Part shown: positions 1 to 21,880 of the stretch, in pieces
Layout: each line of letters opens with the position of its first letter
Numbering within the stretch: position 1 is the stretch's first letter
DNA from: Escherichia coli
GTDB taxonomy: Bacteria > Pseudomonadota > Gammaproteobacteria > Enterobacterales > Enterobacteriaceae
DNA length: 64,000 bases
Direction: 5' to 3' (one strand)
NCBI RefSeq assembly: GCF_013122565.1
Contig: NZ_CP053258.1
Notes under the pieces: generated by a model
Databases searched by the model: none
What the model was told of the DNA's origin: nothing
The model's input: the letters and a program-made list of their open reading frames with translations, nothing else
Program-made: the position numbers and the translations under genes

Positions 1-521
1 ATTTCGCTGTCGCCGACAAACAGGCCGACGGTCACCTTGCCATGCAGTTGTGGATCGCTGGCGATGGTTTTGGCGAAACGGCTGGCCTGATCGGTTGCCA
101 GGGCGTTCATCGGGTAGATGATAATCGCTTTAACCCCGGCTTGTGACGCGCCCGCGCAGTGGTTGAGCAGCGGGAACATAAAGCATTCTGTTTTACCGGA
201 GCCGGTACCGGTAGCGACCAGCGTCGGCTGTGGCGCGTCGCTTCCCAGACGCTGAAATGCCCGGGCCTGATGCGCGTGCGGCGGGAACGGCAGCGTCAGA
301 TTAGGGAAGAAATTCAGCGGTAAGTCACTTTTACGAAACGGCAACTGGGCGGAAAGGTATGGTCCTTTCAGCAGCGTTTCGGGCTGGGCCAGAAATTGCT
401 CCAGCATTGAGACATTATCGTTATTCTCACCGTTAAACAGCGGGCTGTTTAGCGGGAACGCCGCCCGTAAAAAGGCGGCAACGCTGTCGGCGACCTGCCG
501 ACTGACAACGGACGGCAACAT
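1..521 (-). CDS. DEAD/DEAH-box SF2 helicase, 5' portion only (gene continues beyond window start); DISARM DrmA-like
   Basis: Manual translation of minus strand from ATG at 521-519 gives MLPSVVSRQVADS...PTLVATGTGSGKTECF (Walker A) with no stops to position 1; start overlaps upstream stop (ATGA); RBS-like GGAGAG upstream. Confidence 0.6.
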   Translation of the reverse strand, partial: MLPSVVSRQVADSVAAFLRAAFPLNSPLFNGENNDNVSMLEQFLAQPETLLKGPYLSAQLPFRKSDLPLNFFPNLTLPFPPHAHQARAFQRLGSDAPQPTLVATGTGSGKTECFMFPLLNHCAGASQAGVKAIIIYPMNALATDQASRFAKTIASDPQLHGKVTVGLFVGDSE

Positions 522-5437: not shown

Positions 5438-5439
5438 GA

Positions 5440-8298
5440 TTAACCCTCCGCTCCGGTGATAACAGCAATTACCTGAATGTAGGGTTCTTTTTCAGTCGTC
5501 ATGGTGTCCTCAATCCATTCGATATAGCTGTCAAAATTGTGTTCGATTTCGCGTTGTCTCTGCTCTTTACGGCTCTGCTTGACTGACAATTGCTGTTTGT
5601 TATCGGCAAAATCCAGCTCAAGTTGGCTCAACTGCCGCCCACGCAAAACGTCCAGCTTTTGCAGATGCTCGTTCAGTTGCTGGTTAATGTGCGTTTCAAA
5701 CGCATTCCGATCATGGATAAATACCTCCCGGGCATGCGCAATAGCCGCTTCCAGTAAATCCTGCTGGCGCTGGTGATTACGATCTTTACCGCCGCTGTTA
5801 GTCAGATTGTTACTCAACTGCGGATGACGTTGTAAAAACTCAGCGAATGGCTGACTGCCGATTAGCGATTCACGGTCAAAGCTCACCACTATCCACGGGT
5901 TCACCATCGGATGTGATTTACGGTTCGGGAATAACCCGGAAAGAATGAAGTGATCTTCATCGGGTTCAAGCAGGTATGGCAGACGGATAACCGGTGCCTG
6001 ATGACGACCAAAAGCCGAAGAGATTTTATCGTCCAGCCACTGCACTACCGGGTTGATTTGCCAGAGATACTGCACATCGGGCCAGGCATGTTGCTCACCG
6101 CGAGCGCGCGCAATCGCGTCGGTGATGACGGTTTTATCCTGACTTAAATAGAGCTGCCAGTTCTCCGGGGCAATTTCAGGCGGTAGCTGGTTGAAGCGGC
6201 GGCGTAACTCCTCCGGTGCCACCAGCGACAAGGTATTATCAGGCAAGGTTTCATACTGGATAGTTTGACCACTGGCTTTCAGGTAACCCAATGCTCTTTC
6301 ACAGTACGCCTGTTCGCTGGCAAACAAGCTGGTGTCTGTTTCGGTAACCATTGAGGCATCGCTGGAAACCGCACTGCATATTTCGCCAAACAGATCATGT
6401 TCGGCGCTTTCCGAGACGTTGCTGTTCAGCAGTTGATCAAACAGGCTGGCACCATCATCCTGCATCATGAACTCTGCAACCTGCTCTTCTTCCTCTTCCT
6501 GGGTAAATTTGCCGGTAAACTCCGAACTGTCCCCAATGTTCTTCTGCGCCTGTTCGTCTTTGTTGATCAACACTTCCAGTACGCGCATATCGCCATTGAT
6601 CTGTGGTTCGCTGGCCTCGGTAAGCAGATAGCGGATTTGAGGCTGATGTTTTTGCCCATAGCGGTCAATACGCCCGTTACGTTGCTGGAATACCATCAAC
6701 GACCACGGAATATCAAAGTGAATCATTTTGTGGCTAAGGTGATGCAAGTTGATCCCTTCAGATGCCACATCCGAACAAACCAGAAGACGCAACGGAGACT
6801 GCGTTTTACCAAAGGCTTCTACGGTTTCCATCAATACCGTATCGCCCTGATCGCCGCGCAGCGTGGCGATCTGGTCATCTTTCAATTTCAGATCCGCTCG
6901 CAGTTGCTGTTCGAGGAACTCCAGCGTTTTAATACTTTCGGTGAAGATCACCAGGCGATCTTCCGTGTTATTGGCTTTCCAGGCGAGGTCTTTTCGGATG
7001 GTGTCGAGCAGCAACTGGTATTTGCTAAACTGGCTGGCATCAATGTTATTCAGCGCCAACAGCAATGACTCCAGTTCGTTGATCTGGCTCTGGCTATTAT
7101 GATCTTTACGGCTCTCAAGACGCTTCAGACGATTCGCCACTACGCTGGCACACGCCATCGGGCTGGAAAATAGCGCTTTTTCGAGGGTTATCTTGAACAG
7201 ACGACCTTTGTTAGACTGGGCCTGTTCATCGTCATCATCACGGAACTGGCTCTCAACCAGGCGACGGTATGCTTCTTCTTCGGCACCAGATGCCAGGCGA
7301 GTCAGTTTGACAATATTGCGCTCGGGGAACTCGCCGGACATCTGATCTTTCACGTCTTTTTTGAAGCGACGGACAACCAGATTTTTATCGGCAAAATCGG
7401 CGTATTCATACTCTTTCGGGTTGGCGATCGCCGTCGGGTCAAGCATGTTCATCAGGCTGGCAAAACTTTCAGCCTTACCATCATGCGGTGTTGCTGAAAG
7501 CATAATCAGCGTATCGCTGCGCCCGGCGAGCAGTTTTGCCAGTTTACTGCGTAACGAACTGGTTCCACGTTCTGCGACGTTATGGGCCTCATCAATGACA
7601 ATAATATCCCACCAGGCATTTTCCAGATGGTGACGATATTCAATGTCTTGTTTCAGCGTATCGATGGAGATAATGGTCTTGTCAAAATAGTGGAACGGGT
7701 TGTGGTTGGTTGGGATGCGGTTACGCACCTTTTGTAAACCAGCAGAATCCAGGCGGGTCAATGGGATCGCAAAACGGCTCCAGAACTCCTTCTGGAATTG
7801 TGTCAGCATCGATTTAACCGCCAGAACCAGAATACGTTTTCCGCGCCCACGACGGATCAGTTCCGAAACCAGAATACCGGCTTCCAGCGTTTTACCCAGA
7901 CCGACAGCGTCGGCAATGAGTATCCGCTGGCGCGGTTGTGCCAGCGCCATCCGCGTAGGATCGAGCTGAAACGGCATGGAATCCATCGCCGCCAGATGAC
8001 CAAAATGGACTTTACTGTCTGTCGGTACGCGTTGGCGTAACTGACTTTCAATATACAACTGTGCCGCTTGATAATTGGCGGATTCATCTTCCACCAAATG
8101 CGTTTTTGCGGGATCAAGGATCTCTACTTTTTGTTCCAGTTTGGTCAGAAATAACCCTTCTTTACCGCGCACCAGCTCTGAAATACCATCGCAGGTCAGC
8201 AAATACCCACCATCACCACTGTCATCCGCCCGGCGAATACGCCATTCGGCATCACGAATAACCACCCGCATACCAGGTGCATAATTTTGCTTATTCAT
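5440..8298 (-). CDS. SNF2-family helicase (952 aa), DISARM DrmD-like
   Basis: Walker A GLGKT, DEAH box (VIDEAHNV), C-terminal helicase region; 2 nt upstream of methyltransferase start. Confidence 0.7.
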   Translation of the reverse strand: MNKQNYAPGMRVVIRDAEWRIRRADDSGDGGYLLTCDGISELVRGKEGLFLTKLEQKVEILDPAKTHLVEDESANYQAAQLYIESQLRQRVPTDSKVHFGHLAAMDSMPFQLDPTRMALAQPRQRILIADAVGLGKTLEAGILVSELIRRGRGKRILVLAVKSMLTQFQKEFWSRFAIPLTRLDSAGLQKVRNRIPTNHNPFHYFDKTIISIDTLKQDIEYRHHLENAWWDIIVIDEAHNVAERGTSSLRSKLAKLLAGRSDTLIMLSATPHDGKAESFASLMNMLDPTAIANPKEYEYADFADKNLVVRRFKKDVKDQMSGEFPERNIVKLTRLASGAEEEAYRRLVESQFRDDDDEQAQSNKGRLFKITLEKALFSSPMACASVVANRLKRLESRKDHNSQSQINELESLLLALNNIDASQFSKYQLLLDTIRKDLAWKANNTEDRLVIFTESIKTLEFLEQQLRADLKLKDDQIATLRGDQGDTVLMETVEAFGKTQSPLRLLVCSDVASEGINLHHLSHKMIHFDIPWSLMVFQQRNGRIDRYGQKHQPQIRYLLTEASEPQINGDMRVLEVLINKDEQAQKNIGDSSEFTGKFTQEEEEEQVAEFMMQDDGASLFDQLLNSNVSESAEHDLFGEICSAVSSDASMVTETDTSLFASEQAYCERALGYLKASGQTIQYETLPDNTLSLVAPEELRRRFNQLPPEIAPENWQLYLSQDKTVITDAIARARGEQHAWPDVQYLWQINPVVQWLDDKISSAFGRHQAPVIRLPYLLEPDEDHFILSGLFPNRKSHPMVNPWIVVSFDRESLIGSQPFAEFLQRHPQLSNNLTNSGGKDRNHQRQQDLLEAAIAHAREVFIHDRNAFETHINQQLNEHLQKLDVLRGRQLSQLELDFADNKQQLSVKQSRKEQRQREIEHNFDSYIEWIEDTMTTEKEPYIQVIAVITGAEG

Positions 8299-8403: not shown

Positions 8404-8521
8404 CGGCAAAGTGACAAAATGGGAGGGAATGCGCATAAATTGCGCATGATTTTCAAACAAAAATTATTAAAAAGTGAGCTGGGTCAACTCCCCTGGAAGA
8501 TATCCCCAGGGGAGCAATTAT

Positions 8522-11500
8522 TTATCCAGCGATAACATAACTCCTAAGGTCATTACCCGGGGCAACAGCTCGCGATCGCGTGTTTGCCAGCCGTTCAACT
8601 TGCTGCGGTACTCGCAGAGCAAAATCAAATAAGGTGTCTTCAATACAGCGCCAGTAGCTAAGCCCCATGTCGAGCAGGACATAATGCTGACTGCCATCGC
8701 TGAAGGTGACTGTCAGTTCTCGTCCATGCTCCGTACTCTGGTTATCCCCCGTTAACCAGCTAATTGCTCCCGGCCACGCAGGCCCCAGATATCCTTCTTC
8801 AAGTAAAGTGGTCACAACCTGCTGACGATCTTCCTCATTAAGCCACGCGTTATAGAGAGCGTCGTGTTGGCGAGAGTTGTAATCCAATTTTTTGACGCAA
8901 ACAGTGAGGCTGGCGCGTTCCGCCATTCCCTGTTCAACCAGCTCGGTTAAGATTTCACCTAACAAACGCGCCGTGAATGGGCTATTAAGATAACGATCGC
9001 TGTACTCAACATGCGTTATCTCTTTGTGGCGGGTAAATGCCTGCTTCCAGCCAGCGTGCTGTTGCGTGACTAACGACCAGAAACGCGAACCAAAACCTTC
9101 CAGCGGCCCGTCCAGTTGTTCACAGAGATTGATGCGCACCGCCCCGGTGGGTAAGGCGGGCAGTAAATCTTCTGCACTTAAGGTCTGACCCGAGAAGGTT
9201 TTTCCGGACGTTCCTTTAAGTGTCACTACTGGTGAAGACGCACTTTGTCCCCATAATTCACCAGGGGCAACGGTAGCGCTGTCGTCTGCGGCCCACTGTT
9301 GGCTTTGCCCTTCGCGAGTCACCTGCGCAAGCCAGCGCCCCTTTCCTTGCATGAGTTGCGCAGTGGCAATGGATTTCACTTGTAAGCGTCCTCCCGGCAT
9401 CGCCGCCAACGCGGAAAGCTGATGTCTGGAGCTATCAGTTAAGTTTTCCAGCGGCGTGGCCACCAGCAACTCAACATTCCCACCGGAGGAAGCAAACTGG
9501 AGCAACTCTTTAAATAATGGCCATTGGGCAAAGTCCCACTGTTCCTGCGGCCCCGCAAGAACCAGCGAGCAGGAGTCATAAATCTCGCTGTTCAGGCATT
9601 GCGCAATACGTAAACTCAGAGGGTTAGTTTCAACCCGGCTACCATCGCCGAAGTACTGATATTCTGGCGCGAGGTTAAGTCGCTGCAACCGTACATTGGT
9701 AAGCAGGGTTAATGCATGGTGACGATCTAATCTGTTGACATAATGCTGACTGTCGTAGCTGAGCAAGCAGTGGTGACAGAATTTATCGCAACTGCAATCG
9801 AGCAATTTTCTGGCGTAATTAAAGACATCAGCCCAATGGTCGATCAATTGCACTGCATAACCTGCACCACCCGCATTATTGTCGTAAATGAAGATGGAAT
9901 ATCCGGTATAGCCATTGATATCGCGCGCTTGCTGCGTCGTCACGCCCAGCTCAGTATTTTCGATACCCAATTTATGCGCTAACCCTTCACGCAAAGCGAC
10001 CGCAAGGGAACGCGCGGCAACCTCATCACGGATCAACAGGCCATTATCATCATTGAGTTGCAGCTCAACCATATCTGTACGACTGCTATACCCCAACCAC
10101 AGATCTTTATGCACATGACCGTGGCACAATTTATTGCTCCCCTGACGATCGTTACTGCCCCCTCGCAACAGGTAATGCGTATTTTCCCGCTCTGGGTTCT
10201 TTAGATTTTCAGGGGTACGCTGGGGTTGAGTTTGAGATTCTGCCCGACCACATGAGAGGCAAATTGCGTAGCCGTGCCCAAATTCCCCTTCACTGAAGTG
10301 GAACAATTCCCCACTATGGCTAAAACGGTAACGTCCTAGCCCAGCATCGGGTAAAGAAACCCACACCGAAGACGGTACAAGAACACGTGGATCTTTCCAG
10401 GGAAGTTGTGCAGGCATGGATACATCATTATGTGCCTGATAACGAATATCTGTCGCAAAACCAACAGGCTGTAAATAACGCTTCACATCAAGTTGCTGTA
10501 TATCCGCTTTGCAGTGACTACATTCGACAGGACGGGTAGTACTGGTTGCCCCCGCACCACATTTACGGCAATGCCAGAACCACGGAATATGATGATCGCC
10601 TGACAGCTCCTGCCCGCTGGCAAGTACCTTGCCAAGCATAATGCCCGAGGAACGATATACTTTTCCGCCCAATACCACATCTGCACCAGGCGCATACTCG
10701 CGTAATGCTGTAGGTAGATCACGGCTGGGCAATTTTTCAATACGACGAGAAAAGCTTTCTCCCCCTTCATTAGGGTCAGCCTGAGTGGCTTTTATTGCGC
10801 GACGTTTTTCCAGCTCATCTGCCGTCAGATAATTGAAATTGACTACGCCAACCGGGAAACCATGCCCCGGCAGGAACGCTTCACTAATGAGTTTAGAAAA
10901 CAGATATGCACCGCGATAATCACGAAGCTGATAAGCGATGGCTTTACCTGCTGGCGTTTCTTCCCACGCGCTGTTATCCGCCTTCAACGCTTCGATATTT
11001 TCCAACAGTATCGCAAGTTGGCTTCTCCAGCGGATATCAACCTGCTGCATCATTGCTTGTGTGCGGGTCAAGAGCTGGGTTGCCGTCAATGACATCAGGA
11101 CGGTTCCCTGAGTAAGGCGTTTAAGTTTATCCGCCAGCTGATCGGCCTGGTGATTTAACCAATGGAGAAAACGAAGACACTGGCTCTCATCACCTTCAAA
11201 GAACCATTTGCAACTCAGTTTTGTCGCATCAGGAACTTCAGCTCGTAAAAACAGACCTAAAACCAGGGCATTAACATGTCGTTGAACAATGCTACTGCTC
11301 CCAAAACGAACCCGTGGCGCACTGGCAGTAGTGTTGAACGCCCAGAGGGGGTCTTTGAATACCTCCATTCCATGCGCCGTGTTTTTACATAACGTAATGG
11401 CAGCAGATGCACTCTCTCCACGACGCCCCGCGCGACCTGCACGTTGCAAATAATTTGCCGGCGCTGGAGGAACGTTGTTCATTGCCACCAAACTCATACC

Positions 11501-14500
11501 ACCAATATCCACCCCCATCTCCATGGTCGTGGAACAGTTCAGCACATTAACTTTGCCTGACTTAAATTGTTTTTCATTAAACTGGTTCTGCTCAGGCGTT
11601 CTCTGCGCAGAGTGTTCCTCCAGACGATACCAGCTATCTTTCAGGGCCAGTCGGTCGCTGCGAGTAGACCATAATCCTTCCTCGCGGGCATGTTGAATCA
11701 GCGCATTACTTTCCAGCCACTCCAGACGTTCTTCTCGGGCGATTTCTCCACCACCAGACAAACGCCAGTGACGTACAGGAAGCTCAGGCATTTCAATCAA
11801 CACTGCTTTTTCAGGTGCAATTTCTTTGCTACCCGGCAAATACGGAGAGTATCCCAGCAACGTGACGTCTAACGCACGTCGAGTATAGGGGCAACGCCAC
11901 ACTTGCTTTGGACTGTAAAATTCAGCTTGTTGTTTAATATCCAGCTGATAACCCGACTCAAACTGACGTAAGCAGGGTCGAATTGCATCCCAGACCTCAA
12001 TCATTAAGTGGTTAACTAACGATTTCCAGTGAGCCTGCTCAGGTTGTATTGCCGGAAAGACTGCGATTAATAGCTTAATGACCCGGTTATAATGGCGATC
12101 GCGTATTTGTGGCCAAAGTTGATCACGTTTCTGCCCTTTGTTTTTTTTATCTGGCCCCTGGAGCATTTTTACCGGGAAACGTGCCCCCATCCAGCGAGGG
12201 TATTGCTCGTTTTCGTAAAAAACGGCACTGTTTTCACGGATAAAGAAATCAAGAGTAATCTTCAATAAATTACGCCATTCCGCTAATTGCTTATCGGGAT
12301 CGGGTAATAATGTCTTCCAGTCCTGCGGGCAGGTTGTAACTTTATCAATAAATGGATAGTGAATGGCTACCAGACCCAGACTTTCGAGGGTCCAGGCATT
12401 TTTAGGGCGGCGACCAAACTCGCTGTATAAACAAAAATCTGCAAACTGTTGTTTAGTAAGATCAAGCCCAGACAATTCTTTAAAACTGCCTCTCATTCTA
12501 TCGGCAAGGTCCACACTGCCAACCAGCTGTTCAGACAGCGTTTGCCATGACATGGTTTTCTTCTGCTGATTGCCAGAGTTAGCCTGAAGTATTTGCATCG
12601 CTTCAGCATGATCCGGGCTTAAGGAACTCACCATCGGCTCAATAATTTTAAGTGCCTGAATGTCCGCCGGGCTAAGCTCCTCATTCGCAGCCATCGCTTT
12701 TTTCAGCGCGTCGATGGAATTTTTTAAAGGGAGGACAGAAAACTGGCTAATAACTTTCTCTAACAGTGCACAGTGTGCCGGGCTGAGTTTTGCTGAAGGC
12801 TCTGTAATATTTGCCAGCTCCTGGTAACAAAGAGCTCGCAACGTCGCTTTATCGGCATCCTGCTGTAAGCGAGCTGAAATGCGAGCGGTACCCTGACGCG
12901 AATCCGTAAAGGTGAGCAAGCGTCGACCATTAAACGGTCCTAACTGCTCTTCTCTTGTTTGCGGTAATGGAGAAAACTCCAGCAGAGTAGGAATAATTTC
13001 ATTTAAAAAAAAGGGCGCGCCGAGCCGAAGCGGACGGAATAAAGGATTATTTTTCCGTTGAGTGTCACCACAGCACACACAAGCAAAGGAGTTATTGCGT
13101 CCCTCACCTCGAGATTCCGGTCTTAACAGGTTTATTTCATAGTGCTTTTGCGCTTCACTATCAATTTTCCCCGCCGTCGTTTCTTCCAGTGAAATGATAT
13201 ATTTTTCACCATCGCTCGCAATCAGACGATCAAATTGAGAGTTATTGTCTAATTCGTCGTTGTCTTCATCTTCAGAATAAACATCTACATCAAGAGCAAA
13301 CTCATCCACTTCGGCAGCGGCGGGTTGCGCTACCAACCAGTTCGTTCCATCACCGCGCATCTCCTCTTTGGCAGACAAATAAGCTGAACCACACCCGGAG
13401 CAACGTAAAACTTCAAATACCGGCGCACCACAGTCACAATATTGGCGCTGCTCAAACCATACCTGACCAAATGGCCAGTCACTCTGATTTAATTCATGTG
13501 CTTTATGTGAGCATTGTTTGTTTGAACATGCCCATAGACCCGCCAGTGTTCTGATAAACCCATGCATACGTAATGGCGTAAAAGCCAGTTCACCTTCTCG
13601 CGATCTTGCCATTAGATCGAGGAGTTGCAGTAGCTCACGGTGATTAATATCTGGCCAGGTTCTTCTGGCAACATTGAGCAACTCACTCAAACGTACTGCC
13701 TGCCGTCCGGGATGAGTTAACGCCTGACGCAATTGCTGGGCCACACGGTAATGACAAAGCTGTTGGTAAAGATCCTGAGGGCTCAGGGATTTAAGAGAAG
13801 TTAAAGATGTGGGGTATTCATGACGAATCAGCGACTCCGATACCCGCGGTATTTGTCGATAACCGCGAACCACTTTGACATCACGTTCTGTAACGCCCGC
13901 GAGATCAGCGACAAATTTAGCAAGCTCCTTATTACCTTCAGGAGAGTCTTCACCAATAGTGGCAGAGGTCGCGATAATCTGCACAGGTTTATCTGTGCCG
14001 GGTCCAACATTGAAAGCCTGCATAACACGACGTAAAAGCAGCGCTAACTCAGCAGCCTGAGAACCAATATAACTATGGGCTTCATCCAGGACGATATACT
14101 TTAACATCCCCTGAGACTTTTCGATGATTGGGGCATCTTTACGACGAATCAGCATATATTCCAGCATGGTGGTATTCGTCACCATGATGGAAGGTGGTGC
14201 TTCATAAATGGCTTCCCGACTCAAAGCTTGTTCAGGTACTTTCAACTGATCTTCCTGAATTTCGTATTTGGTATGCCGGGTTTCGCCATTATATAGCGCG
14301 AAGCGTATTTTCCCCTTAAATCCGCGCGTCCATTCGCGAAGCCGCTCCTGTTGGCTGTTAATTAATGCATTTAACGGATACAAGAAAATAGCTTGTGTCC
14401 CTGTTAGTGACTGGCGGGTCGATTTTTGCTGACGAATAAGATCTTCCAGAACAGGTACCATAAAGCATTCTGTTTTCCCGGATCCCGTACCGCTGCTCAC

Positions 14501-14845
14501 TAACAAGGATTTTTTGTCTTCCAGAATCGTTCGCCACGCAGTGAGTTGATGACGAAATGGCACTGGCGCTTTGCTCAATGCATCAACCAGCGGGCTGGAG
14601 ATCAGCTTGTCCCGCAAATCCTCCATTGTTTCATCCGCAGGCATCCAGCCGAATGTACTTTCGAATACCGGGTCTGCAAGCAGTGACCCCTCCTGACCGG
14701 GAGGCTGAAAATATTGTGATTCCAGATAATGAGTCAACGACTTGCTCCGCAATGCCAACTGACTTACCACCGACCTCACCGCACGCTGATGAAGCTGATT
14801 TAGAAGTGGCGCATAATGCAGTTGCTGAACGTCCATCAATGACAT
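8522..14845 (-). CDS. Very large helicase (2107 aa) with C-terminal cysteine-rich DUF1998-like zinc ribbon; Druantia DruE-like
   Basis: Motifs GTGSGKTECFM (Walker A), VLDEAHSY (DEAH), C-terminal CxxC clusters (CSCDKFCHHC); size and architecture match DruE. Confidence 0.7.
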   Translation of the reverse strand: MSLMDVQQLHYAPLLNQLHQRAVRSVVSQLALRSKSLTHYLESQYFQPPGQEGSLLADPVFESTFGWMPADETMEDLRDKLISSPLVDALSKAPVPFRHQLTAWRTILEDKKSLLVSSGTGSGKTECFMVPVLEDLIRQQKSTRQSLTGTQAIFLYPLNALINSQQERLREWTRGFKGKIRFALYNGETRHTKYEIQEDQLKVPEQALSREAIYEAPPSIMVTNTTMLEYMLIRRKDAPIIEKSQGMLKYIVLDEAHSYIGSQAAELALLLRRVMQAFNVGPGTDKPVQIIATSATIGEDSPEGNKELAKFVADLAGVTERDVKVVRGYRQIPRVSESLIRHEYPTSLTSLKSLSPQDLYQQLCHYRVAQQLRQALTHPGRQAVRLSELLNVARRTWPDINHRELLQLLDLMARSREGELAFTPLRMHGFIRTLAGLWACSNKQCSHKAHELNQSDWPFGQVWFEQRQYCDCGAPVFEVLRCSGCGSAYLSAKEEMRGDGTNWLVAQPAAAEVDEFALDVDVYSEDEDNDELDNNSQFDRLIASDGEKYIISLEETTAGKIDSEAQKHYEINLLRPESRGEGRNNSFACVCCGDTQRKNNPLFRPLRLGAPFFLNEIIPTLLEFSPLPQTREEQLGPFNGRRLLTFTDSRQGTARISARLQQDADKATLRALCYQELANITEPSAKLSPAHCALLEKVISQFSVLPLKNSIDALKKAMAANEELSPADIQALKIIEPMVSSLSPDHAEAMQILQANSGNQQKKTMSWQTLSEQLVGSVDLADRMRGSFKELSGLDLTKQQFADFCLYSEFGRRPKNAWTLESLGLVAIHYPFIDKVTTCPQDWKTLLPDPDKQLAEWRNLLKITLDFFIRENSAVFYENEQYPRWMGARFPVKMLQGPDKKNKGQKRDQLWPQIRDRHYNRVIKLLIAVFPAIQPEQAHWKSLVNHLMIEVWDAIRPCLRQFESGYQLDIKQQAEFYSPKQVWRCPYTRRALDVTLLGYSPYLPGSKEIAPEKAVLIEMPELPVRHWRLSGGGEIAREERLEWLESNALIQHAREEGLWSTRSDRLALKDSWYRLEEHSAQRTPEQNQFNEKQFKSGKVNVLNCSTTMEMGVDIGGMSLVAMNNVPPAPANYLQRAGRAGRRGESASAAITLCKNTAHGMEVFKDPLWAFNTTASAPRVRFGSSSIVQRHVNALVLGLFLRAEVPDATKLSCKWFFEGDESQCLRFLHWLNHQADQLADKLKRLTQGTVLMSLTATQLLTRTQAMMQQVDIRWRSQLAILLENIEALKADNSAWEETPAGKAIAYQLRDYRGAYLFSKLISEAFLPGHGFPVGVVNFNYLTADELEKRRAIKATQADPNEGGESFSRRIEKLPSRDLPTALREYAPGADVVLGGKVYRSSGIMLGKVLASGQELSGDHHIPWFWHCRKCGAGATSTTRPVECSHCKADIQQLDVKRYLQPVGFATDIRYQAHNDVSMPAQLPWKDPRVLVPSSVWVSLPDAGLGRYRFSHSGELFHFSEGEFGHGYAICLSCGRAESQTQPQRTPENLKNPERENTHYLLRGGSNDRQGSNKLCHGHVHKDLWLGYSSRTDMVELQLNDDNGLLIRDEVAARSLAVALREGLAHKLGIENTELGVTTQQARDINGYTGYSIFIYDNNAGGAGYAVQLIDHWADVFNYARKLLDCSCDKFCHHCLLSYDSQHYVNRLDRHHALTLLTNVRLQRLNLAPEYQYFGDGSRVETNPLSLRIAQCLNSEIYDSCSLVLAGPQEQWDFAQWPLFKELLQFASSGGNVELLVATPLENLTDSSRHQLSALAAMPGGRLQVKSIATAQLMQGKGRWLAQVTREGQSQQWAADDSATVAPGELWGQSASSPVVTLKGTSGKTFSGQTLSAEDLLPALPTGAVRINLCEQLDGPLEGFGSRFWSLVTQQHAGWKQAFTRHKEITHVEYSDRYLNSPFTARLLGEILTELVEQGMAERASLTVCVKKLDYNSRQHDALYNAWLNEEDRQQVVTTLLEEGYLGPAWPGAISWLTGDNQSTEHGRELTVTFSDGSQHYVLLDMGLSYWRCIEDTLFDFALRVPQQVERLANTRSRAVAPGNDLRSYVIAG

Positions 14846-17800
14846 ACTCCTGCTTGTTCAAAATAATATTGATAGATTACCCCTAATTGCTGTGGGGCTT
14901 GCTGATAGTGAAATTCAAAAAGCGCAGACAGTTGATGTATCAGGTTATTATCTTTTTGGGTTAACAGCGCTGCGACTAACATCAAATTAAAACGTTTTTC
15001 AAGCCGTGAGTGATATTTATCTTCAATCCAAAGCTTATTAAAAACAGATTTTAACTCTGGAGTAATAGCACTGGACCAAAGTTCTTTAGGGAAGATACTG
15101 ATACGCCCAAAGCTGTCGGGGTTCCTTAATAGCATCTGTTTAGCTTCATTAAACTGCTCACGACTAACAGTTGGCAATACATCACAACCGGTTGGTAGGC
15201 TCTCACTATATGTAAGTAACATATTCGCAATGGGAGCCAGCCGACGATCGATATGTGCACGATGGTTCATAAAAGCAATAAAGGGTCGCAATATATGTAA
15301 TGCTAATGTTTTATCGTTAATCTGTTTTTCCAGATAAGTCCAACATTTTTGGAAAACATCTTTCCAGATTGAAACGGGAATCCATCCCCATGAAAAGGGT
15401 AATTCTTCCTGTATATCATAAATCGTATCGCTATCACCAGAAAGACATGATGATATTAACAATTGAACAACCACGCGGTAATTACTCGAAATACATCTGA
15501 ACAAGTCCAGATCCAGCAAGGATAAGCCATTATTCATTTTGTATTTCTTAATATACTCTGTTAATAAACAGCAATAATTTTGCAATGGGTTGTTATCTAT
15601 TTCAAAAATTAGCTCATTAAAATTTTTTTTGCGCTGTTCTGGGTCTGCTTCGCATAGAGCATTTAGTAATAAATCATTTGTCTGTAATACAGGTAGCATC
15701 CATTTAATTACTGGTGCAATGCGAGCTGTACCATCCAGTTTTCCCACAATTAACCATGGACTATCCTGAACATTCAGAGCTGAAAGATCATAAGCAAACT
15801 CATCTTTTTTTAACAATGATATGTGTAAGCCAGGATTCTTAAGAGAAATAGCATCAACAACCAGTTCGTCTATTCTATTTGCAGGAAAAACAACAGAATT
15901 TTTTATATCAACCAGTAACCCTTGATCGTGTTCAATAAAACTACCATCGTAGCGTTTAATATTGAGTGTTGCTTTATCCTTTCCAAATCTGTCAGAGTAA
16001 AAATCAACACATAATGTACTATTGCTGTTCCATGCACATGCCAGCATAGCATTTAGCAAATTATAGTTCTCATAAAGTGAAATTTGTTGTAATTTGTCAT
16101 TGCGTCCTGATAAAAGAGGAAGGTCGGCATGTAAATAACGGAATTTTTCAGCTACTGGATTTTCATCGAATAACTCGATATTAAGATATCCTCTTCCAGC
16201 ACATGATATGGTTAATAACTCAGCATCTATTCCATGCAAATGTGCTATAGATGCCACACCATCAAAATGAACAGAACCATCATTAGTTACAAATCGGCCA
16301 CCGCTAACCGGCTTAGGTAATAATAGTTTAAGATTAGAACCATCTTTCCAGGAGACCCGTAAATCAACGGTATTTTCCAGCATCTGCGATGAATTATAAT
16401 AAATAGCACACTCGTTTTGTGAATAATCGGACTTAAGTGTTACTTTTTCATTGTTTGAATATTTATCAATTCTAGTATCCGTTATACCAGAAAGTATAAT
16501 AATGCCTTGCTGAGCACTCTCAGGTATAATATTAATATCGAAGTCTGCTGGTAAAACTACAACTTTACCGCTAAATAAAACCTCATCATTAACTATTCGC
16601 CGGACTTCTATCTGTCCTTTTGGCATTTCTGATGCGACAGAATACCAGGCATTGTTACCTGAACGAATGGAACGCCAAAAAAGTTCTTTCTCCGGTACAA
16701 TGCCATATTGTAGATCCTTTTTCCAACCGATCTTCGGCCAGGCTCGATGGACAGGATAATCCGATTTAACCAGTTCAACTTCTGTCGATTTAATATAATA
16801 TTCAATTGCAGAATCATAAAGTTGCTGGGTGCGAATTGTACAAACAGCACCATCATGTAAAACAACGCTAAATACTCCACTTATTTTAGTTAAGCTGCGT
16901 TCACTGTTTTTCAGCAACCTTGGGATATCAAACTCACCTTCTCCACTAATATCTAAATGGCTATTTTTCGGTAGCGAAATAAACAGAGCATTTAGCCTGG
17001 AACTCACAGACCCCATACCAACAAGTTTTAGCTGCGATTCACTCTCATTCATCGCTTCAAAAACCCAGGGAAGTTCTTCAGTAAGTTCATAACCGCCTTT
17101 TGGAATTGTGTGACCTAACAGAATTGGACCTTCATGAAGCGACAATGAGATTTCGGCCATTGCATCTGCACCAGAGAGTTTTTGCATCGCAATAGGTAAT
17201 AACTCGACCCGCCAATCTTGCTGCTCATAACGGCTTAGCATTGCCAACCTTGCCCCGCCATTTTTCCATTTTCCTGAAATGATGAGTCGGGTCTGCTCCG
17301 GCTGAATATGGCATTCAAACAAAGAGGTTAACTGTTCTGTACGCATTGTGGCCGGGAATCGGAACCGGGCATCGCAATACCAACTGTCATCAACATCGAC
17401 CCAGATTCTTTCAACCTGAAGACTACTTGCACTGCGTATTTCAGAAGATTGAGAAAGTAATCGCCTTACAATCTCTGCAGCATTCGCTTCGGGGAGAACG
17501 AGTGGAAGTTGAAGATGCCAGTCTGGAGAGAGCTTACGTAATGCAGAAACGGGATCACTGCTTTGAGGAGGATGCTCACTAAGTAATCGGCAGAGAGTCT
17601 CGCAGAATTCACCGGCTATTTCATAGACCAGTTCGTTTTGCATTGTGACAGGAATCGTATCGCCTAATTCTTGTGCAATTTTAGCGGCAGGATATTGAGA
17701 TGATTGCCCACGAAGCGCCTGATATATCCTTCTGAAATAGGTAATCAAATAACCGCTCTCATTTTCAATCATGCGGATAGGTAAACCACCTTCACAAGCC

Positions 17801-18195
17801 AGTGTATGCAGATAACCCGAAGCTTGCCCCAGGTTTCTTATCTTTCTTTTCCAGTAGCGAATGCCATCATTAACCAGCTTCTGTCGATGAACATACGGAA
17901 CTTTCCAGTTAATAGAATCTAAAATTGTGTCCCATTTAGGGTGTCCGACCGTATGAGTTCGGCGGATAAACTCTGCGGCATATATGCTAAATAGAACATC
18001 GCTATAGGAAATGAATATCGTTCTTGGATAACTACGGGGGGCATATGTACGCAGTAGTTCTGCCAAACTTTCGTACTCTGTATCAGTACAACGGTAAGCA
18101 TATAACGCCCGTCCATCAGCTCCGGATAATGAACGGCGACTAAAAAACATGTTAAGCCATTGCAAAAGTGGGTTAACTGGAGTTTTCACAAGCAA
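14836..18195 (-). CDS. Large protein of unknown function (1119 aa); Druantia type III DruH-like by position
   Basis: Long ORF immediately upstream of and overlapping the DruE-like gene by 10 nt; no recognisable catalytic motif. Confidence 0.5.
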   Translation of the reverse strand: MLVKTPVNPLLQWLNMFFSRRSLSGADGRALYAYRCTDTEYESLAELLRTYAPRSYPRTIFISYSDVLFSIYAAEFIRRTHTVGHPKWDTILDSINWKVPYVHRQKLVNDGIRYWKRKIRNLGQASGYLHTLACEGGLPIRMIENESGYLITYFRRIYQALRGQSSQYPAAKIAQELGDTIPVTMQNELVYEIAGEFCETLCRLLSEHPPQSSDPVSALRKLSPDWHLQLPLVLPEANAAEIVRRLLSQSSEIRSASSLQVERIWVDVDDSWYCDARFRFPATMRTEQLTSLFECHIQPEQTRLIISGKWKNGGARLAMLSRYEQQDWRVELLPIAMQKLSGADAMAEISLSLHEGPILLGHTIPKGGYELTEELPWVFEAMNESESQLKLVGMGSVSSRLNALFISLPKNSHLDISGEGEFDIPRLLKNSERSLTKISGVFSVVLHDGAVCTIRTQQLYDSAIEYYIKSTEVELVKSDYPVHRAWPKIGWKKDLQYGIVPEKELFWRSIRSGNNAWYSVASEMPKGQIEVRRIVNDEVLFSGKVVVLPADFDINIIPESAQQGIIILSGITDTRIDKYSNNEKVTLKSDYSQNECAIYYNSSQMLENTVDLRVSWKDGSNLKLLLPKPVSGGRFVTNDGSVHFDGVASIAHLHGIDAELLTISCAGRGYLNIELFDENPVAEKFRYLHADLPLLSGRNDKLQQISLYENYNLLNAMLACAWNSNSTLCVDFYSDRFGKDKATLNIKRYDGSFIEHDQGLLVDIKNSVVFPANRIDELVVDAISLKNPGLHISLLKKDEFAYDLSALNVQDSPWLIVGKLDGTARIAPVIKWMLPVLQTNDLLLNALCEADPEQRKKNFNELIFEIDNNPLQNYCCLLTEYIKKYKMNNGLSLLDLDLFRCISSNYRVVVQLLISSCLSGDSDTIYDIQEELPFSWGWIPVSIWKDVFQKCWTYLEKQINDKTLALHILRPFIAFMNHRAHIDRRLAPIANMLLTYSESLPTGCDVLPTVSREQFNEAKQMLLRNPDSFGRISIFPKELWSSAITPELKSVFNKLWIEDKYHSRLEKRFNLMLVAALLTQKDNNLIHQLSALFEFHYQQAPQQLGVIYQYYFEQAGVCH

Positions 18196-18403
18196 CCTGC
18201 CTTCCTTTGATACAATTCGTAACAGGTTACTATCATCATAAAAAAGCTCAACCCGATGAACTCGCTAAAAATGAGACAAATCATTTATATCTCGAAAAAA
18301 CTTGTTACAATCATGAGCGCTACACCGAACTTAACCATATAAATTATGTGTGTTTTGTTTATTTTTTAAACGATTACAACTATCCATTATTTACACAGGT
18401 ATC

Positions 18404-20059
18404 AAAATGTTAGCGCAGCTTTTTGAGCAGTTGTTTCAATCGATAGACTCTACACTGATCACCAATATTTTCATCTGGGCTGTTATATTCGTATTTTTAT
18501 CAGCGTGGTGGTGTGACAAAAAAAATATACATAGTAAGTTTAGAGAATATGCTCCAACCTTAATGGGGGCATTAGGTATTCTGGGTACTTTCATTGGTAT
18601 TATTATTGGTTTACTCAATTTTAATACCGAAAGTATTGATACCAGCATCCCCGTATTATTAGGTGGCCTAAAAACAGCATTCATTACAAGCATTGTAGGT
18701 ATGTTTTTTGCCATTTTATTTAATGGAATGGATGCTTTCTTTTTTGCCAATAAACGAAGTGCGTTAGCAGAAAATAACCCTGAATCTGTTACACCTGAAC
18801 ATATCTATCATGAATTAAAAGAGCAGAACCAGACTCTGACTAAATTAGTCTCGGGTGTTAACGGTGATAGTGAAGGTTCTCTTATTGCTCAAATAAAATT
18901 ACTACGTACTGAGATTAGCGATTCTTCGCAGGCACAATTAGCTAATCACACTCATTTCAGTAATAAGCTTTGGGAACAACTTGAACAATTTGCAGATCTA
19001 ATGGCAAAAGGTGCTACAGAACAAATTATTGATGCTTTGCGACAAGTTATTATTGATTTTAATGAAAATTTAACTGAACAGTTTGGTGAAAACTTTAAAG
19101 CACTTGATGCCTCTGTAAAAAAACTTGTTGAGTGGCAGGGAAATTATAAAACGCAAGTTGAGCAGATGTCAGAACAGTATCAACAAAGTGTCGAGTCCCT
19201 GGTTGAAACAAAAACTGCGGTTGCAGGGATTTGGGAAGAATGTAAAGAAATTCCTCTGGCTATGTCTGAACTGCGTGAAGTGCTTCAGGTGAACCAACAT
19301 CAAATCAGCGAACTCTCCCGCCATTTAGAAACCTTTGTCGCCATCCGCGATAAAGCAACAACCGTATTACCTGAAATACAGAACAAAATGGCTGAAGTGG
19401 GTGAACTGCTGAAATCCGGAGCTGCAAATGTTAGTGCATCTCTTGAGCAAACCAGCCAGCAAATACTTCTTAATGCAGATTCAATGCGCGTGGCCCTGGA
19501 TGAAGGTACCGAAGGATTCAGACAATCGGTTACCCAAACACAACAAGCATTTGCCTCGATGGCACATGATGTCAGCAATTCCTCCGAAACCCTAACCAGC
19601 ACGTTAGGTGAAACAATTACTGAAATGAAACAAAGTGGTGAAGAATTCCTGAAATCACTAGAGTCGCACTCGAAAGAATTGCATAGAAATATGGAACAAA
19701 ATACTACGAATGTGATTGATATGTTCAGTAAGACTGGTGAAAAGATTAACCATCAACTATCCAGTAATGCCGATAATATGTTTGATTCAATCCAGACATC
19801 ATTTGATAAGGCAAGTGCAGGGTTGACTTCTCAAGTCAGAGAATCAATTGAAAAATTTGCTCTATCCATCAACGAGCAGTTACATGCTTTTGAGCAAGCA
19901 ACTGAACGTGAAATGAACCGTGAAATGCAATCATTAGGTAATGCTCTGCTTTCAATCAGCAAAGGTTTTGTCGGTAACTATGAAAAACTTATTAAAGATT
20001 ACCAAATAGTTATGGGGCAGTTACAAGCATTAATTTCTGCTAATAAACATCGCGGGTAA
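18404..20059 (+). CDS. MotA/ExbB-like membrane protein with long coiled-coil tail; Zorya ZorA-like
   Basis: N-terminal hydrophobic helices followed by long helical Q/E/L-rich tail; ORF track starts at GTG 18350, first ATG at 18404. Confidence 0.65.
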   Translation, partial: KMLAQLFEQLFQSIDSTLITNIFIWAVIFVFLSAWWCDKKNIHSKFREYAPTLMGALGILGTFIGIIIGLLNFNTESIDTSIPVLLGGLKTAFITSIVGMFFAILFNGMDAFFFANKRSALAENNPESVTPEHIYHELKEQNQTLTKLVSGVNGDSEGSLIAQIKLLRTEISDSSQAQLANHTHFSNKLWEQLEQFADLMAKGATEQIIDALRQVIIDFNENLTEQFGENFKALDASVKKLVEWQGNYKTQVEQMSEQYQQSVESLVETKTAVAGIWEECKEIPLAMSELREVLQVNQHQISELSRHLETFVAIRDKATTVLPEIQNKMAEVGELLKSGAANVSASLEQTSQQILLNADSMRVALDEGTEGFRQSVTQTQQAFASMAHDVSNSSETLTSTLGETITEMKQSGEEFLKSLESHSKELHRNMEQNTTNVIDMFSKTGEKINHQLSSNADNMFDSIQTSFDKASAGLTSQVRESIEKFALSINEQLHAFEQATEREMNREMQSLGNALLSISKGFVGNYEKLIKDYQIVMGQLQALISANKHRG

Positions 20060-20065
20060 TCGATC

Positions 20066-20773
20066 ATGGATAAGATTATAGGGAAACAATTACCTAAAAA
20101 AGATCAAGATAATGAACATTGGGTATCCATGTCAGACCTAATGGCAGGGCTGATGATGGTTTTTATGTTCATATCTATTGCTTATATGCACTACGTACGT
20201 ATTGAAAAAGAAAAAATTAAAGAAGTTGCCGTAGCCTACGAGAATGCTCAGTTACAGCTTTATAATGCTCTGGATATTGAGTTTGCAAAGGATTTACAAG
20301 ACTGGGATGCAGAGATCGATAAACAGACTCTGGAGGTTCGATTTAAATCACCGGATGTTTTATTTGGCTTAGGAAGCACAGAGCTAAAACCAAAGTTTAA
20401 ACTCATTCTTGACGACTTTTTTCCTCGCTACCTAAAAGTTCTAGATAATTATCAGGAACATATTACTGAAGTCCGCATTGAAGGTCACACAAGTACTGAC
20501 TGGACAGGAACAACGAATCCTGATATTGCTTATTTTAATAATATGGCACTATCACAAGGTCGTACACGTGCAGTATTACAATACGTTTATGACATAAAAA
20601 ATATCGCGACACACCAACAATGGGTTAAAAGTAAATTTGCCGCAGTAGGTTATTCATCTGCACATCCCATTCTTGATAAAACCGGCAAGGAGGATCCTAA
20701 TCGCTCTCGTCGTGTCACCTTCAAAGTTGTAACAAATGCCGAGTTGCAGATTAGAAAGATTATTCAGGAGTAA
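20066..20773 (+). CDS. MotB/OmpA-like protein with peptidoglycan-binding domain; Zorya ZorB-like
   Basis: N-terminal TM helix; OmpA-like C-terminus (NxxLSQGRTRAV...NRSRRVTF); 6 nt after zorA-like stop. Confidence 0.65.
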   Translation: MDKIIGKQLPKKDQDNEHWVSMSDLMAGLMMVFMFISIAYMHYVRIEKEKIKEVAVAYENAQLQLYNALDIEFAKDLQDWDAEIDKQTLEVRFKSPDVLFGLGSTELKPKFKLILDDFFPRYLKVLDNYQEHITEVRIEGHTSTDWTGTTNPDIAYFNNMALSQGRTRAVLQYVYDIKNIATHQQWVKSKFAAVGYSSAHPILDKTGKEDPNRSRRVTFKVVTNAELQIRKIIQE

Positions 20774-20776
20774 GAG

Positions 20777-21880
20777 ATGAAATTATCTATCGACATTTCA
20801 GAACTTATTCAATTAGGGAAGAAAATGTTACCAGAAGGAGTCGATTTTTTTCTGGATGAATCCCCTATTGACTTTGATCCTATAGATATTGAGTTATCAA
20901 CGGGTAAAGAAGTTAGTATCGAAGATCTTGACCCTGGTAGCGGGCTTATCTCTTATCATGGCCGCCAGGTTCTTTTATATATTCGGGACCATTCAGGGCG
21001 TTATGATGCGGCTATCGTAGATGGCGAAAAAGGAAAACGTTTTCATATTGCCTGGTGCAGAACTCTTGATGAAATGCGCCATAAAAATCGATTTGAAAGG
21101 TATCATGCAACTAACCGCATAGATGGTTTATTCGAAATTGATGATGGTTCAGGTCGGAGCCAGGATGTTGATTTACGGGTATGTATGAATTGCCTCGAAC
21201 GGCTTAATTATAAAGGAAGTATTGATAAACAAAGAAAAAGAGAGATTTTTAAATCATTCTCATTAAATGAGTTTTTTTCAGATTATAGTACCTGTTTTCG
21301 TCATATGCCTAAGGGTATCTATGACAAAACAAATAGTGGGTATGTCGAAAACTGGAAGGAAATATCTAAAGAAATACGAGAAAAGGCAAATTATGTTTGT
21401 AATGATTGTGGCGTGAATTTATCAACCGCCAAAAACTTGTGCCATGTCCATCATAAAAATGGCATCAAATATGATAATCACCATGAAAACCTTCTTGTTC
21501 TGTGCAAGGATTGCCATCGAAAACAGCCCCTCCACGAAGGTATATTCGTTACCCAAGCAGAGATGGCTATCATTCAACGTTTACGTTCCCAACAAGGGTT
21601 ATTAAAAGCAGAATCCTGGAATGAAATATATGACCTGACTGATCCATCAGTGCATGGTGATATTAATATGATGCAACATAAAGGCTTTCAACCTCCTGTT
21701 CCTGGGTTAGATCTTCAAAACTCAGAACATGAAATTATTGCAACCGTAGAAGCTGCATGGCCAGGCCTTAAAATTGCAGTTAACCTTACTCCCGCCGAAG
21801 TCGAAGGATGGAGAATATATACCGTGGGTGAGCTGGTTAAAGAAATACAAACCGGAGCCTTTACGCCAGCAAAATTGTAA
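20777..21880 (+). CDS. HNH endonuclease-domain protein; Zorya type II ZorE-like
   Basis: HNH motif CNDCG...CHVHHKNG...NLLVLCKDCH; third gene of MotA-like/MotB-like cassette. Confidence 0.6.
   Translation: MKLSIDISELIQLGKKMLPEGVDFFLDESPIDFDPIDIELSTGKEVSIEDLDPGSGLISYHGRQVLLYIRDHSGRYDAAIVDGEKGKRFHIAWCRTLDEMRHKNRFERYHATNRIDGLFEIDDGSGRSQDVDLRVCMNCLERLNYKGSIDKQRKREIFKSFSLNEFFSDYSTCFRHMPKGIYDKTNSGYVENWKEISKEIREKANYVCNDCGVNLSTAKNLCHVHHKNGIKYDNHHENLLVLCKDCHRKQPLHEGIFVTQAEMAIIQRLRSQQGLLKAESWNEIYDLTDPSVHGDINMMQHKGFQPPVPGLDLQNSEHEIIATVEAAWPGLKIAVNLTPAEVEGWRIYTVGELVKEIQTGAFTPAKL

What the first reader, a model, noticed from the sequence alone, without database searches (positions are those of the whole stretch)
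14836..18195. DruH-like 1119 aa protein with no recognisable domain
The protein partnering the DUF1998 helicase has no motif I can assign by eye, and the two genes overlap by 10 nt. If this is Druantia type III, DruH is the mechanistically unknown component; if not, the pair could be a new helicase-associated system.
Basis: inference. Interest (0 to 1): 0.5.

Follow-up and report, generated by a model that had tools for sequence, protein, structure and literature searches.

The report
Known DruH gene of Druantia III
This 1119-residue gene is druH, the partner of the DruE helicase in the anti-phage system Druantia type III; it is nearly identical to an Escherichia coli protein whose structure and activities were published in 2025-2026, so this is a known system and not a new one.

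Summary
The ORF at 14836-18195 (-) is real. It is druH (YjiT family) of a type III-A Druantia system.

- **Family matches:** PADLOC DruH3 scores 2549 bits over the full length. NCBIfam YjiT_fam scores 983 bits against a cutoff of 150.
- **Solved structure:** PDB 9TUD, named "DruH", is near-identical.
- **Partner gene:** the downstream 2107-aa ORF is DruE, with intact helicase and zinc motifs.
- **Setting:** the pair lies between Zorya II and ARMADA II on a tRNA-Leu (leuX) island. This is the OI-172 arrangement of E. coli O157:H7, and 546 of 5426 complete E. coli genomes carry the locus.

Pfam and fold searches assign no catalytic domain. A new helicase-associated system is excluded.

Five 2026 studies disagree on what DruH does: an ATP-gated ssDNA binder, a 3'-5' exonuclease, a dimer-dependent nickase and phage-protein sensor, a scaffold, or a sensor activated by a phage tail protein. 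Every published functional residue is present here.

My alignment of 128 diverse homologues adds one point. Family-wide conservation concentrates in the all-alpha N-terminal domain. The published ATP/ssDNA pocket is conserved only in the closest relatives.

Verdict: already known, low interest.

The parts
14836..18195 (-). druH coding sequence (YjiT family), 1119 aa from TTG 18195. The alternative GTG start at 18189 gives 1117 aa. The stop codon is at 14836-14838.
   Evidence: ORF. PADLOC DruH3 PDLC00041, 2549 bits, residues 3-1119. NCBIfam NF038336, 983 bits against a cutoff of 150. PDB 9tud_A 'DruH', 2568 bits. 6 aa differences from E. coli WP_000960581.
17428..18195 (-). DruH N-terminal all-alpha domain (residues 1-256). 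It is the most conserved part of the family. It carries R21, D27, R29, R35, E40, E75, R78, R79, R117 and the E135-G-G-L-P139 motif.
15676..17427 (-). DruH beta-rich middle region (residues about 257-840), a series of Ig-like/Fn3-like domains.
   Evidence: The AF2 model is all-beta over 260-831. Foldseek hits are only tandem Ig arrays. The cryo-EM descriptions give six Ig-like domains.
14839..15675 (-). DruH C-terminal alpha-helical domain (residues about 841-1119). Together with Ig5 it forms the published ssDNA/ATP pocket: Y670, N672, H689, Y733, D735, R1031, H1062, R1064, K1067. In the P. aeruginosa complex this domain contacts the DruE stalk.
   Evidence: All pocket residues are present. The pocket is described, and the DruE contact. 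The pocket residues are conserved only in the 49%-identical relative P0001.
8522..14845 (-). druE coding sequence: a YprA/MrfA-type SF2 helicase with an MZB (DUF1998) zinc module and C-terminal PLD-like domains. It is 2107 aa from the first ATG and 2104 aa from the second ATG at 14836.
   Evidence: PADLOC DruE3, 2182 bits. PDB 9tu7, 4888 bits. GSGKT, DEAH, RAGRAGR and the Cys cluster are intact.
14836..14845 (-). druH-druE junction. The sequence GTATGTCATTGATGG holds the druH stop codon TGA, which overlaps both candidate druE start codons (10-nt or 1-nt overlap). AGGAG lies just upstream.
   Evidence: Sequence. RefSeq coordinates share one base.
18196..18406 (.). 211-bp divergent intergenic region between druH and zorA2, with sigma-70-like hexamer pairs on the + strand inside it (consensus matches only).
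   Evidence: + strand sites at 18207-18236 and 18284-18311; the - strand sites facing druH (18413-18386, 18370-18343) start at or beyond its zorA edge. The region has the same length as in E. coli PapRG-06-5.
8476..8490 (-). Terminator-like hairpin followed by a T-run, in the 223-bp gap between druE and armA. It suggests that druHE is a two-gene operon.
   Evidence: pattern match only.
18407..21880 (+). Context: zorA2-zorB2-zorE (Zorya type II), transcribed divergently from druHE. It is the published synergy partner of Druantia III.
   Evidence: NCBIfam equivalogs above cutoff. PADLOC. Literature.
1..8298 (-). Context: ARMADA II genes. armA is the SNF2 helicase at 5440-8298, armB the methyltransferase at 521-5437, and the first 173 codons of armC lie at 3-521, cut by the window edge.

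Best explanation
**What it is.** The ORF is druH, the type-specific partner gene of a type III-A Druantia anti-phage system. It belongs to the Escherichia/Klebsiella 'cluster 11' lineage. It is co-transcribed and translationally coupled with druE, on a leuX-integrated defence island that also carries Zorya II and ARMADA II.

**Shown by published experiments on proteins about 99% identical**
- Both genes are required for defence.
- Defence clears phage without killing the cell.
- DruE is a 3'-to-5' helicase of the YprA/MrfA type that loads on exposed ssDNA or 3' tails.
- DruH is a ring of an all-alpha N-terminal domain, six Ig-like domains and an alpha-helical C-terminal domain.
- DruH binds ssDNA in a pocket between Ig5 and the C-terminal domain, and ATP competes for that pocket.

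**Inferred: the mechanism I think most likely**
1. DruH acts upstream as the licensing factor.
2. It engages exposed ssDNA or 3' ends on phage replication or recombination intermediates. It may also read a phage structural protein through its variable Ig-like domains.
3. On such DNA it docks through its C-terminal domain onto the DruE stalk. DruE then switches from an auto-inhibited dimer to an active helicase-nuclease that unwinds and destroys phage DNA.
4. The family-invariant N-terminal domain is the essential core. It may be a 3'-5' exonuclease site of a new fold, or an activation switch.
5. ATP gating is a feature added in this lineage.
For: **Identity**
- Full-length DruH3 and DruE3 matches and YjiT_fam at 983 bits.
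- PDB 9TUD and 9TU7 are near-identical.
- The locus is 99.5% identical to E. coli loci annotated the same way, and 546 of 5426 genomes carry it.
- The gene order matches OI-172.

**Intactness**
- All 26 distinct published functional DruH residues are present.
- The DruE motifs are intact.

**Mechanism, from the literature**
- ssDNA binding and ATP competition.
- 3'-5' exonuclease activity, and a DruE-DruH complex that forms only on forked DNA, in the P. aeruginosa system.
- An N-terminal patch with both loss- and gain-of-function mutants.
- Both genes are needed, and phage is cleared without cell death.

**My own tests**
- The pairing is family-wide: homologues at 25% identity are each followed by an overlapping helicase of about 2100 aa with an MZB module.
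- Conservation across 128 homologues is 3.3-fold enriched in residues 1-256 (p = 3e-7). It includes D27, E40, E75 and E135 plus six Arg/Lys positions.
- The ATP/ssDNA pocket residues are kept only in the 49%-identical relative.
Against: - The biochemical reports conflict. One group saw no DruH nuclease activity under any condition, and no DruE-DruH contact even with DNA.
- Another group saw no direct contact and no effect of DruH on DruE unwinding.
- The exonuclease and the complex were shown for a distant P. aeruginosa orthologue, not for this lineage.
- My mapping of PaDruH R22/K28/E64 onto R29/R35/E75 rests only on consistent offsets, not on the PaDruH sequence.
- The alignment of the C-terminal domain is gappy: occupancy at R1031 and H1062 is 0.05. 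Non-conservation of the pocket could therefore be partly an alignment artefact.
- Nothing was tested experimentally on this exact sequence.
Confidence: 0.9

Rival explanations
1. DruH is a non-catalytic sensor or scaffold. Its Ig-like domains recognise a late phage structural protein (baseplate or minor tail). That recognition, not DNA processing, switches on DruE, which carries all the enzymatic activity.
For: - Ig-like domains dominate the fold.
- Published work reports positive selection in the Ig region and weak co-immunoprecipitation with a T4 gp7-like baseplate protein.
- In M. smegmatis, the minor tail protein Gp25 alone activates the system.
- DruH dissociates from the DruE interactome on infection.
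Against: - The residues conserved across the family lie in the N-terminal helical domain, not in the Ig-like region. A variable-target sensor fits the Ig variability but does not explain the invariant charged cluster.
- ssDNA binding is seen directly by cryo-EM.
- Two groups report nuclease activity.
- My Foldseek search of viral structures gave only generic tandem-Ig matches with TM <= 0.12, and no specific baseplate-J match.
Confidence: 0.3
2. DruH is purely an ATP-gated ssDNA clamp. When phage infection or DruE activity lowers local ATP, DruH binds the strands unwound by DruE. This stops them re-annealing and immobilises the phage genome for other nucleases such as ZorE.
For: - Cryo-EM structures with ssDNA and with ATP occupy the same pocket, and no nuclease or ATPase activity was detected.
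- All pocket residues (Y670, N672, H689, Y733, R1031, H1062, R1064, K1067) are present in the window protein.
- Zorya II is adjacent.
Against: - Pocket residues are not conserved beyond the nearest relative, so this cannot be the general DruH mechanism.
- R1031A, H1062A and R1064A reduce defence only about 10-fold, and N672A and Y733A hardly at all. N-terminal mutants abolish defence.
- K1067A leaves stand-alone defence intact.
- Druantia III defends without Zorya in heterologous hosts.
Confidence: 0.2
3. The pair is not Druantia. It is a new helicase-associated system, or the ORF is a decayed remnant like yjiT/yjiV of E. coli K-12.
For: Only that Pfam-A as served here gives no domain. PADLOC also holds a 596-position DruH profile that corresponds to truncated copies.
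Against: - End-to-end matches to the DruH3 and DruE3 profiles.
- Full-length uninterrupted ORFs, with 6 and 8 aa differences from E. coli proteins.
- Solved structures of the same proteins.
- All functional residues are intact.
Confidence: 0.01

Closest known systems
[not shown]
   Same: Same length and the same domain order, with about 99.5% identity: 6 substitutions against WP_000960581 (Q211H, I567M, Q604L, F676L, C901G, R970Q). It has the same DruE partner, the same divergent Zorya II and the same downstream ARMADA II.
   Different: Only the handful of substitutions, none at a published functional residue. The flanking core genes are only about 96% identical to E. coli, so the host is probably a more divergent Escherichia lineage. 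The cargo on the tRNA-Leu side of the island also differs.
PaDruH-PaDruE of Pseudomonas aeruginosa (Loeff, Chanez and Jinek 2026, bioRxiv 10.64898/2026.05.13.724313)
   Same: Same two-gene architecture and the same N-terminal domain / six Ig-like domains / C-terminal domain layout. Conserved N-terminal charged residues are needed for defence.
   Different: It is a distant orthologue. Its 3'-5' exonuclease activity and its 1:1 complex with DruE on forked DNA have not been reproduced for the E. coli lineage. It targets T-even phages.
DruH-DruE of Mycolicibacterium smegmatis (Li and He 2026, PMC13316683)
   Same: A two-component type III Druantia in which both genes are needed.
   Different: Its DruE is shorter (1667 aa, without the tandem PLD region). 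A direct DruH-DruE interaction is reported. The outcome resembles abortive infection, and the trigger is a minor tail protein.
yjiT / yjiV of E. coli K-12 (immigration control region)
   Same: Same protein families, YjiT and YjiV_N.
   Different: From my own knowledge, the K-12 copies are truncated or pseudogenised remnants. The window copies are full length and intact. The window locus lies at leuX rather than next to hsd/mcr.
MrfA-MrfB (YprA helicase plus 3'-5' exonuclease, Bacillus subtilis), and DISARM DrmAB
   Same: A YprA/MrfA-type helicase with an MZB/DUF1998 module works with a separate partner on ssDNA-containing substrates. This is the functional analogy behind the exonuclease model for DruH.
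   Different: DruH has no sequence or fold similarity to MrfB or to any known nuclease. DISARM uses methylation for self-protection, whereas Druantia III-A does not depend on host methylation.

Membership tests
Druantia type III (PADLOC / DefenseFinder definition) | A DruE-type helicase: DEAD/DEAH SF2 core plus an MZB/DUF1998 zinc module. | tested here: met
   DruE3 PDLC00037, 2182 bits, residues 9-2105. GSGKT, DEAH, RAGRAGR and the Cys cluster are present. PDB 9tu7, 4888 bits.
Druantia type III (PADLOC / DefenseFinder definition) | A DruH-family gene immediately upstream of druE on the same strand. | tested here: met
   DruH3 PDLC00041, 2549 bits, full length. The genes overlap by 1 or 10 nt.
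Druantia type III (PADLOC / DefenseFinder definition) | No type I, II or IV accessory genes (DruA-D, DruM/F/G) in the operon. | tested here: met
   The neighbours match Zorya II and ARMADA/DISARM-like profiles only. A terminator-like site follows druE.
Druantia subtype III-A (as against III-B) | A long DruE (about 2100 aa) with C-terminal tandem PLD-like domains. | tested here: met
   2104 or 2107 aa, and near-identical to the EDL933 III-A DruE solved as 9TU7-9TUC. The PLD domains were not analysed separately here.
Druantia type III | Anti-phage defence that requires both genes. | not testable with these tools
   Shown for about 99%-identical genes in EDL933, ATCC 8739 and MG1655, but not for this sequence.
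YjiT / STY4851-ECs_5259 protein family (NCBIfam NF038336) | A whole-protein score above the curated cutoff. | tested here: met
   983.4 bits against a cutoff of 150, residues 13-1107 on profile positions 1-1089 of 1090.
Known nuclease folds (PD-(D/E)xK, HNH, DEDD, PLD and others) | Sequence or structural similarity of any DruH domain to a characterised nuclease. | tested here: not met
   [not shown]
Phage baseplate wedge J-like proteins (similarity claimed in PMC13192584) | A specific structural match of DruH residues 1-676 to a baseplate J/gp6-type protein. | tested here: inconclusive
   Foldseek against BFVD gives E-values of 1e-4 to 1e-3 to virion structural, 'tip attachment protein J' and Ig-fold proteins, but with TM <= 0.12. 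That is generic tandem-Ig similarity. PHROGs finds no sequence match.

The most novel reading that the evidence does not exclude
Probability: 0.3. Interest if true: 0.5.

Novelty: already known. Interest (0 to 1): 0.12.

Why it matters
As a discovery it does not matter much. It is one more copy of a defence island carried by about a tenth of complete E. coli genomes, and its proteins already have cryo-EM structures.

Its remaining value is comparative. The published mechanisms for DruH contradict each other. Conservation across the family gives a simple way to separate the core from lineage-specific features: the N-terminal domain is invariant, while the ATP/ssDNA pocket is confined to this lineage. 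That tells experimenters which residues to mutate to settle whether DruH is an enzyme.

Tried and rejected
- **Pfam-A scan of DruH:** no domain. The served library appears to predate PF27201 and PF27205, which are recorded on homologues.
- **PHROGs:** nothing.
- **Profile of the N-terminal domain against PDB sequences:** only 9TUD.
- **Foldseek of the full model against viral and PDB structures:** only tandem Ig-like arrays at TM <= 0.12. The DruH coordinates themselves are not yet in the fold library, which stops at 2026-04-08.
- **'New helicase-associated system' and 'decayed remnant':** rejected.
- **Mapping the PaDruH catalytic residues exactly:** not possible, because I could not obtain the PaDruH sequence. 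One paper look-up failed on a short search term.
- **Model coordinates:** not available to scripts, so I could not measure whether the conserved residues cluster in space.
- **Host organism:** not identified beyond 'Escherichia-like, about 96% identical to E. coli in core genes'.
Full report
**1. The observation**

The minus strand carries an uninterrupted ORF from TTG at 18195 to a stop at 14836-14838, 1119 codons. AGGAAGG and GCAGG lie upstream. An in-frame GTG two codons downstream (18189) is the alternative start. The 1117-position PADLOC profile and the PDB construct both align from residue 3, while RefSeq annotates the 1119-aa form.

Three things point to its second ATG as the start, which gives 2104 aa and a 1-nt TGATG overlap:
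- RefSeq uses it.
- The residue numbering of published DruE mutants fits it.
- The AGGAG spacing suits it better.

In either case the two genes are translationally coupled. A terminator-like hairpin follows druE at 8490-8476, and promoter-like hexamers sit in the 211-bp divergent region upstream of druH. Both are pattern matches only.

**2. What it is**

The protein matches three independent references:
- PADLOC DruH3 end to end (PDLC00041, 2549 bits).
- NCBIfam NF038336 'YjiT_fam / STY4851-ECs_5259 family', 983 bits against a cutoff of 150.
- A sequence search of the PDB returns 9TUD chain A, named DruH, 1119 residues, 2568 bits, with only scattered substitutions.

The partner matches DruE3 (2182 bits) and PDB 9TU7-9TUC (4888 bits). 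It keeps GSGKT, DEAH, RAGRAGR and the zinc-binding cysteines.

The 9.9-kb druHE stretch is 99.5% identical to E. coli chromosomes. It occurs in 546 of 5426 complete E. coli genomes. Against E. coli PapRG-06-5, DruH differs at 6 residues and DruE at 8.

The surroundings are:
- zorA2-zorB2-zorE, transcribed divergently (18407-21880).
- armA, armB and the start of armC downstream (1-8298).

This is exactly the O-island 172 arrangement of E. coli O157:H7 EDL933. The system is therefore a type III-A Druantia of the Escherichia/Klebsiella 'cluster 11' lineage.

**3. What is known about DruH**

Six papers or preprints from September 2025 to June 2026 cover this system. All groups agree on two points. 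Both genes are required. DruE is a 3'-to-5' YprA/MrfA-type helicase that loads on ssDNA-containing DNA.

On DruH they disagree:

| Group | Claim about DruH | Calls |
|---|---|---|
[quoted passage not shown] ATP competes for that pocket. No nuclease activity and no DruE contact. | 13, 14, 39 |
| Wu et al. | A phage-protein sensor with a baseplate-J-like scaffold. Dimer-dependent nicking. An N-terminal surface (residues 63-137) whose mutants either abolish or enhance defence. | 15, 16, 66 |
| Wahl/Beisel groups | A monomer of ten domains with no catalytic fold. It reaches DruE only indirectly in cells. | 20 |
| Loeff et al. (P. aeruginosa orthologue) | A Mg-dependent 3'-5' ssDNA exonuclease, with essential N-terminal residues R22, K28 and E64. 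A 1:1 DruE-DruH complex forms only on forked DNA, through the DruH C-terminal domain. | 22, 23, 40 |
| Li and He (M. smegmatis) | A direct DruH-DruE interaction. Activation by a minor tail protein. | 34, 73 |

**4. Tests made here**

*Functional residues.* All 26 distinct published functional residues of the E. coli protein are present in the window protein.

*Family size and pairing.* An exhaustive search found 1338 clusters at 50% identity with E <= 1e-3. Most are full length, at 24-28% identity. Two distant members (25% identity) are each followed by an overlapping helicase of about 2100 aa with DEAD, YjiV_N, Helicase_C and MZB domains. The pairing is therefore family-wide. These homologues also carry Pfam PF27201 (YjiT_N) and PF27205 (YjiT_2nd).

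*Conservation.* In a MAFFT alignment of 128 full-length representatives plus the query:
- 42 of the 91 positions with >= 80% identity fall in residues 1-256. The odds ratio is 3.3 and p = 3e-7.
- 16 of the 30 positions with a conserved charge fall there too.
- The conserved set includes R21, D27, R29, R35, E40, E75, R78, R79, R117, the E135-G-G-L-P139 motif, W88, W115, W226 and P231.
- It coincides with the published loss-of-function patch.
- By consistent offsets (my inference), it also coincides with PaDruH R22, K28 and E64.
- The ATP/ssDNA pocket residues are kept only in the 49%-identical relative and vary elsewhere. One caveat applies: the C-terminal domain aligns poorly.

*Structure.*
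- AlphaFold2 models are confident. The N-terminal domain has pLDDT 86.6, and the full-length model has pLDDT 89.5 and pTM 0.68.
- The models reproduce the published architecture: alpha over 1-250, beta over 260-831 and alpha over 842-1117.
- Foldseek of the whole model against PDB and viral structures gives only tandem Ig-like arrays with TM <= 0.12.
- No nuclease fold is detectable. The claimed baseplate-J resemblance was neither confirmed nor excluded.

**5. Most likely mechanism**

*Shown, for near-identical proteins:* the system is a two-gene, non-abortive defence that clears phage. DruE unwinds 3'-to-5' from exposed ssDNA. DruH binds ssDNA.

*Inferred:*
1. DruH acts upstream. It engages ssDNA or 3' ends on phage replication or recombination intermediates, possibly helped by recognition of a phage structural protein through its variable Ig-like domains.
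2. It then docks on the DruE stalk, and DruE becomes an active helicase-nuclease.
3. The conservation pattern makes the N-terminal domain the indispensable core. It is either a new kind of exonuclease site or an activation switch.
4. The same pattern makes ATP gating a lineage-specific layer.

I put the identity at about 0.98 and this mechanistic synthesis at about 0.5. The main rivals are a pure sensor or scaffold (0.3) and a pure ATP-gated ssDNA clamp (0.2).

**6. Comparison and novelty**

The locus meets every testable defining feature of Druantia III-A and of the YjiT family. It fails the test for any known nuclease family.

It is already known. It adds one more allele (six substitutions) in a host whose core genes are only about 96% identical to E. 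coli.

Interest is low. The only forward-looking point is that family-wide conservation can help settle the current dispute over what DruH does.

Noticed in passing
window 8522-21880: There is a sharp step in synonymous-site composition inside the druHE operon. druH has GC3 0.31, the same as the divergent zorABE (0.30-0.31). druE has GC3 0.46, and armA/armB have 0.55-0.59. Two distant druHE loci show no such step: 0.52/0.51 and 0.72/0.71. This suggests that druH and Zorya II share a compositional history different from that of druE and ARMADA, although published work reports congruent DruE and DruH trees.
   Followed up: partly
window 47857-64000 versus 8522-18400: The core genes beyond the tRNA (valS, pepA, yjgR and others) are only about 95.6-96.1% identical to the best E. 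coli genomes. The druHE locus is 99.5% identical. The host is probably a divergent Escherichia lineage, and the defence genes were probably exchanged horizontally in the recent past.
   Followed up: partly
window 46151-47703: A P4-type integrase gene (46151-47419, minus strand) lies next to tRNA-Leu(CAA) (47619-47703, minus strand). This marks the end of a leuX-integrated island of at least 47 kb that carries all the defence systems.
   Followed up: partly
window 35704-44594: A type I restriction-modification operon (hsdR 35704-39120, hsdM 39184-40818, hsdS 40815-41990) is followed directly by two overlapping genes. These match the PADLOC candidate system PDC-M01A/B: a PtuA-like ATPase at 41987-43678 and its partner at 43668-44594.
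   Followed up: no
window 25278-27540: An AbiEii-type nucleotidyltransferase toxin gene (25278-26225, minus strand; PADLOC 425 bits) has two small upstream ORFs (26218-26682 and 26683-27540) with no family match. This is a likely AbiE-like toxin-antitoxin module.
   Followed up: no
window 22091-23197: An intact N-acetylneuraminate epimerase (YjhT-family mutarotase, 601 bits) sits just after zorE. At the same place E. coli PapRG-06-5 has only a pseudogene fragment of this gene.
   Followed up: no
window 1-8298: The ARMADA II genes armA (SNF2 helicase) and armB (1638-aa methyltransferase that scores as type IIG RM in PADLOC) are complete. armC is cut by the window start after 173 codons. Judged by PADLOC alone, the pair would be mislabelled as a type IIG enzyme plus DrmD.
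   Followed up: partly
E. coli records H2 and H3 (NZ_CM169472.1, NZ_CM172715.1): Some RefSeq records name DruE 'motility-regulating DEAH-box RNA helicase'. A 2026 preprint found that deleting druE had no effect on motility or fliC, so the name is probably misleading.
   Followed up: no
window 44843-45847: A 334-aa ORF on the minus strand matches only the N-terminal roughly 130 residues of a PADLOC 'Aga_REase-PNTD' profile (80 bits). It may be a truncated or novel nuclease-domain protein at the integrase end of the island.
   Followed up: no
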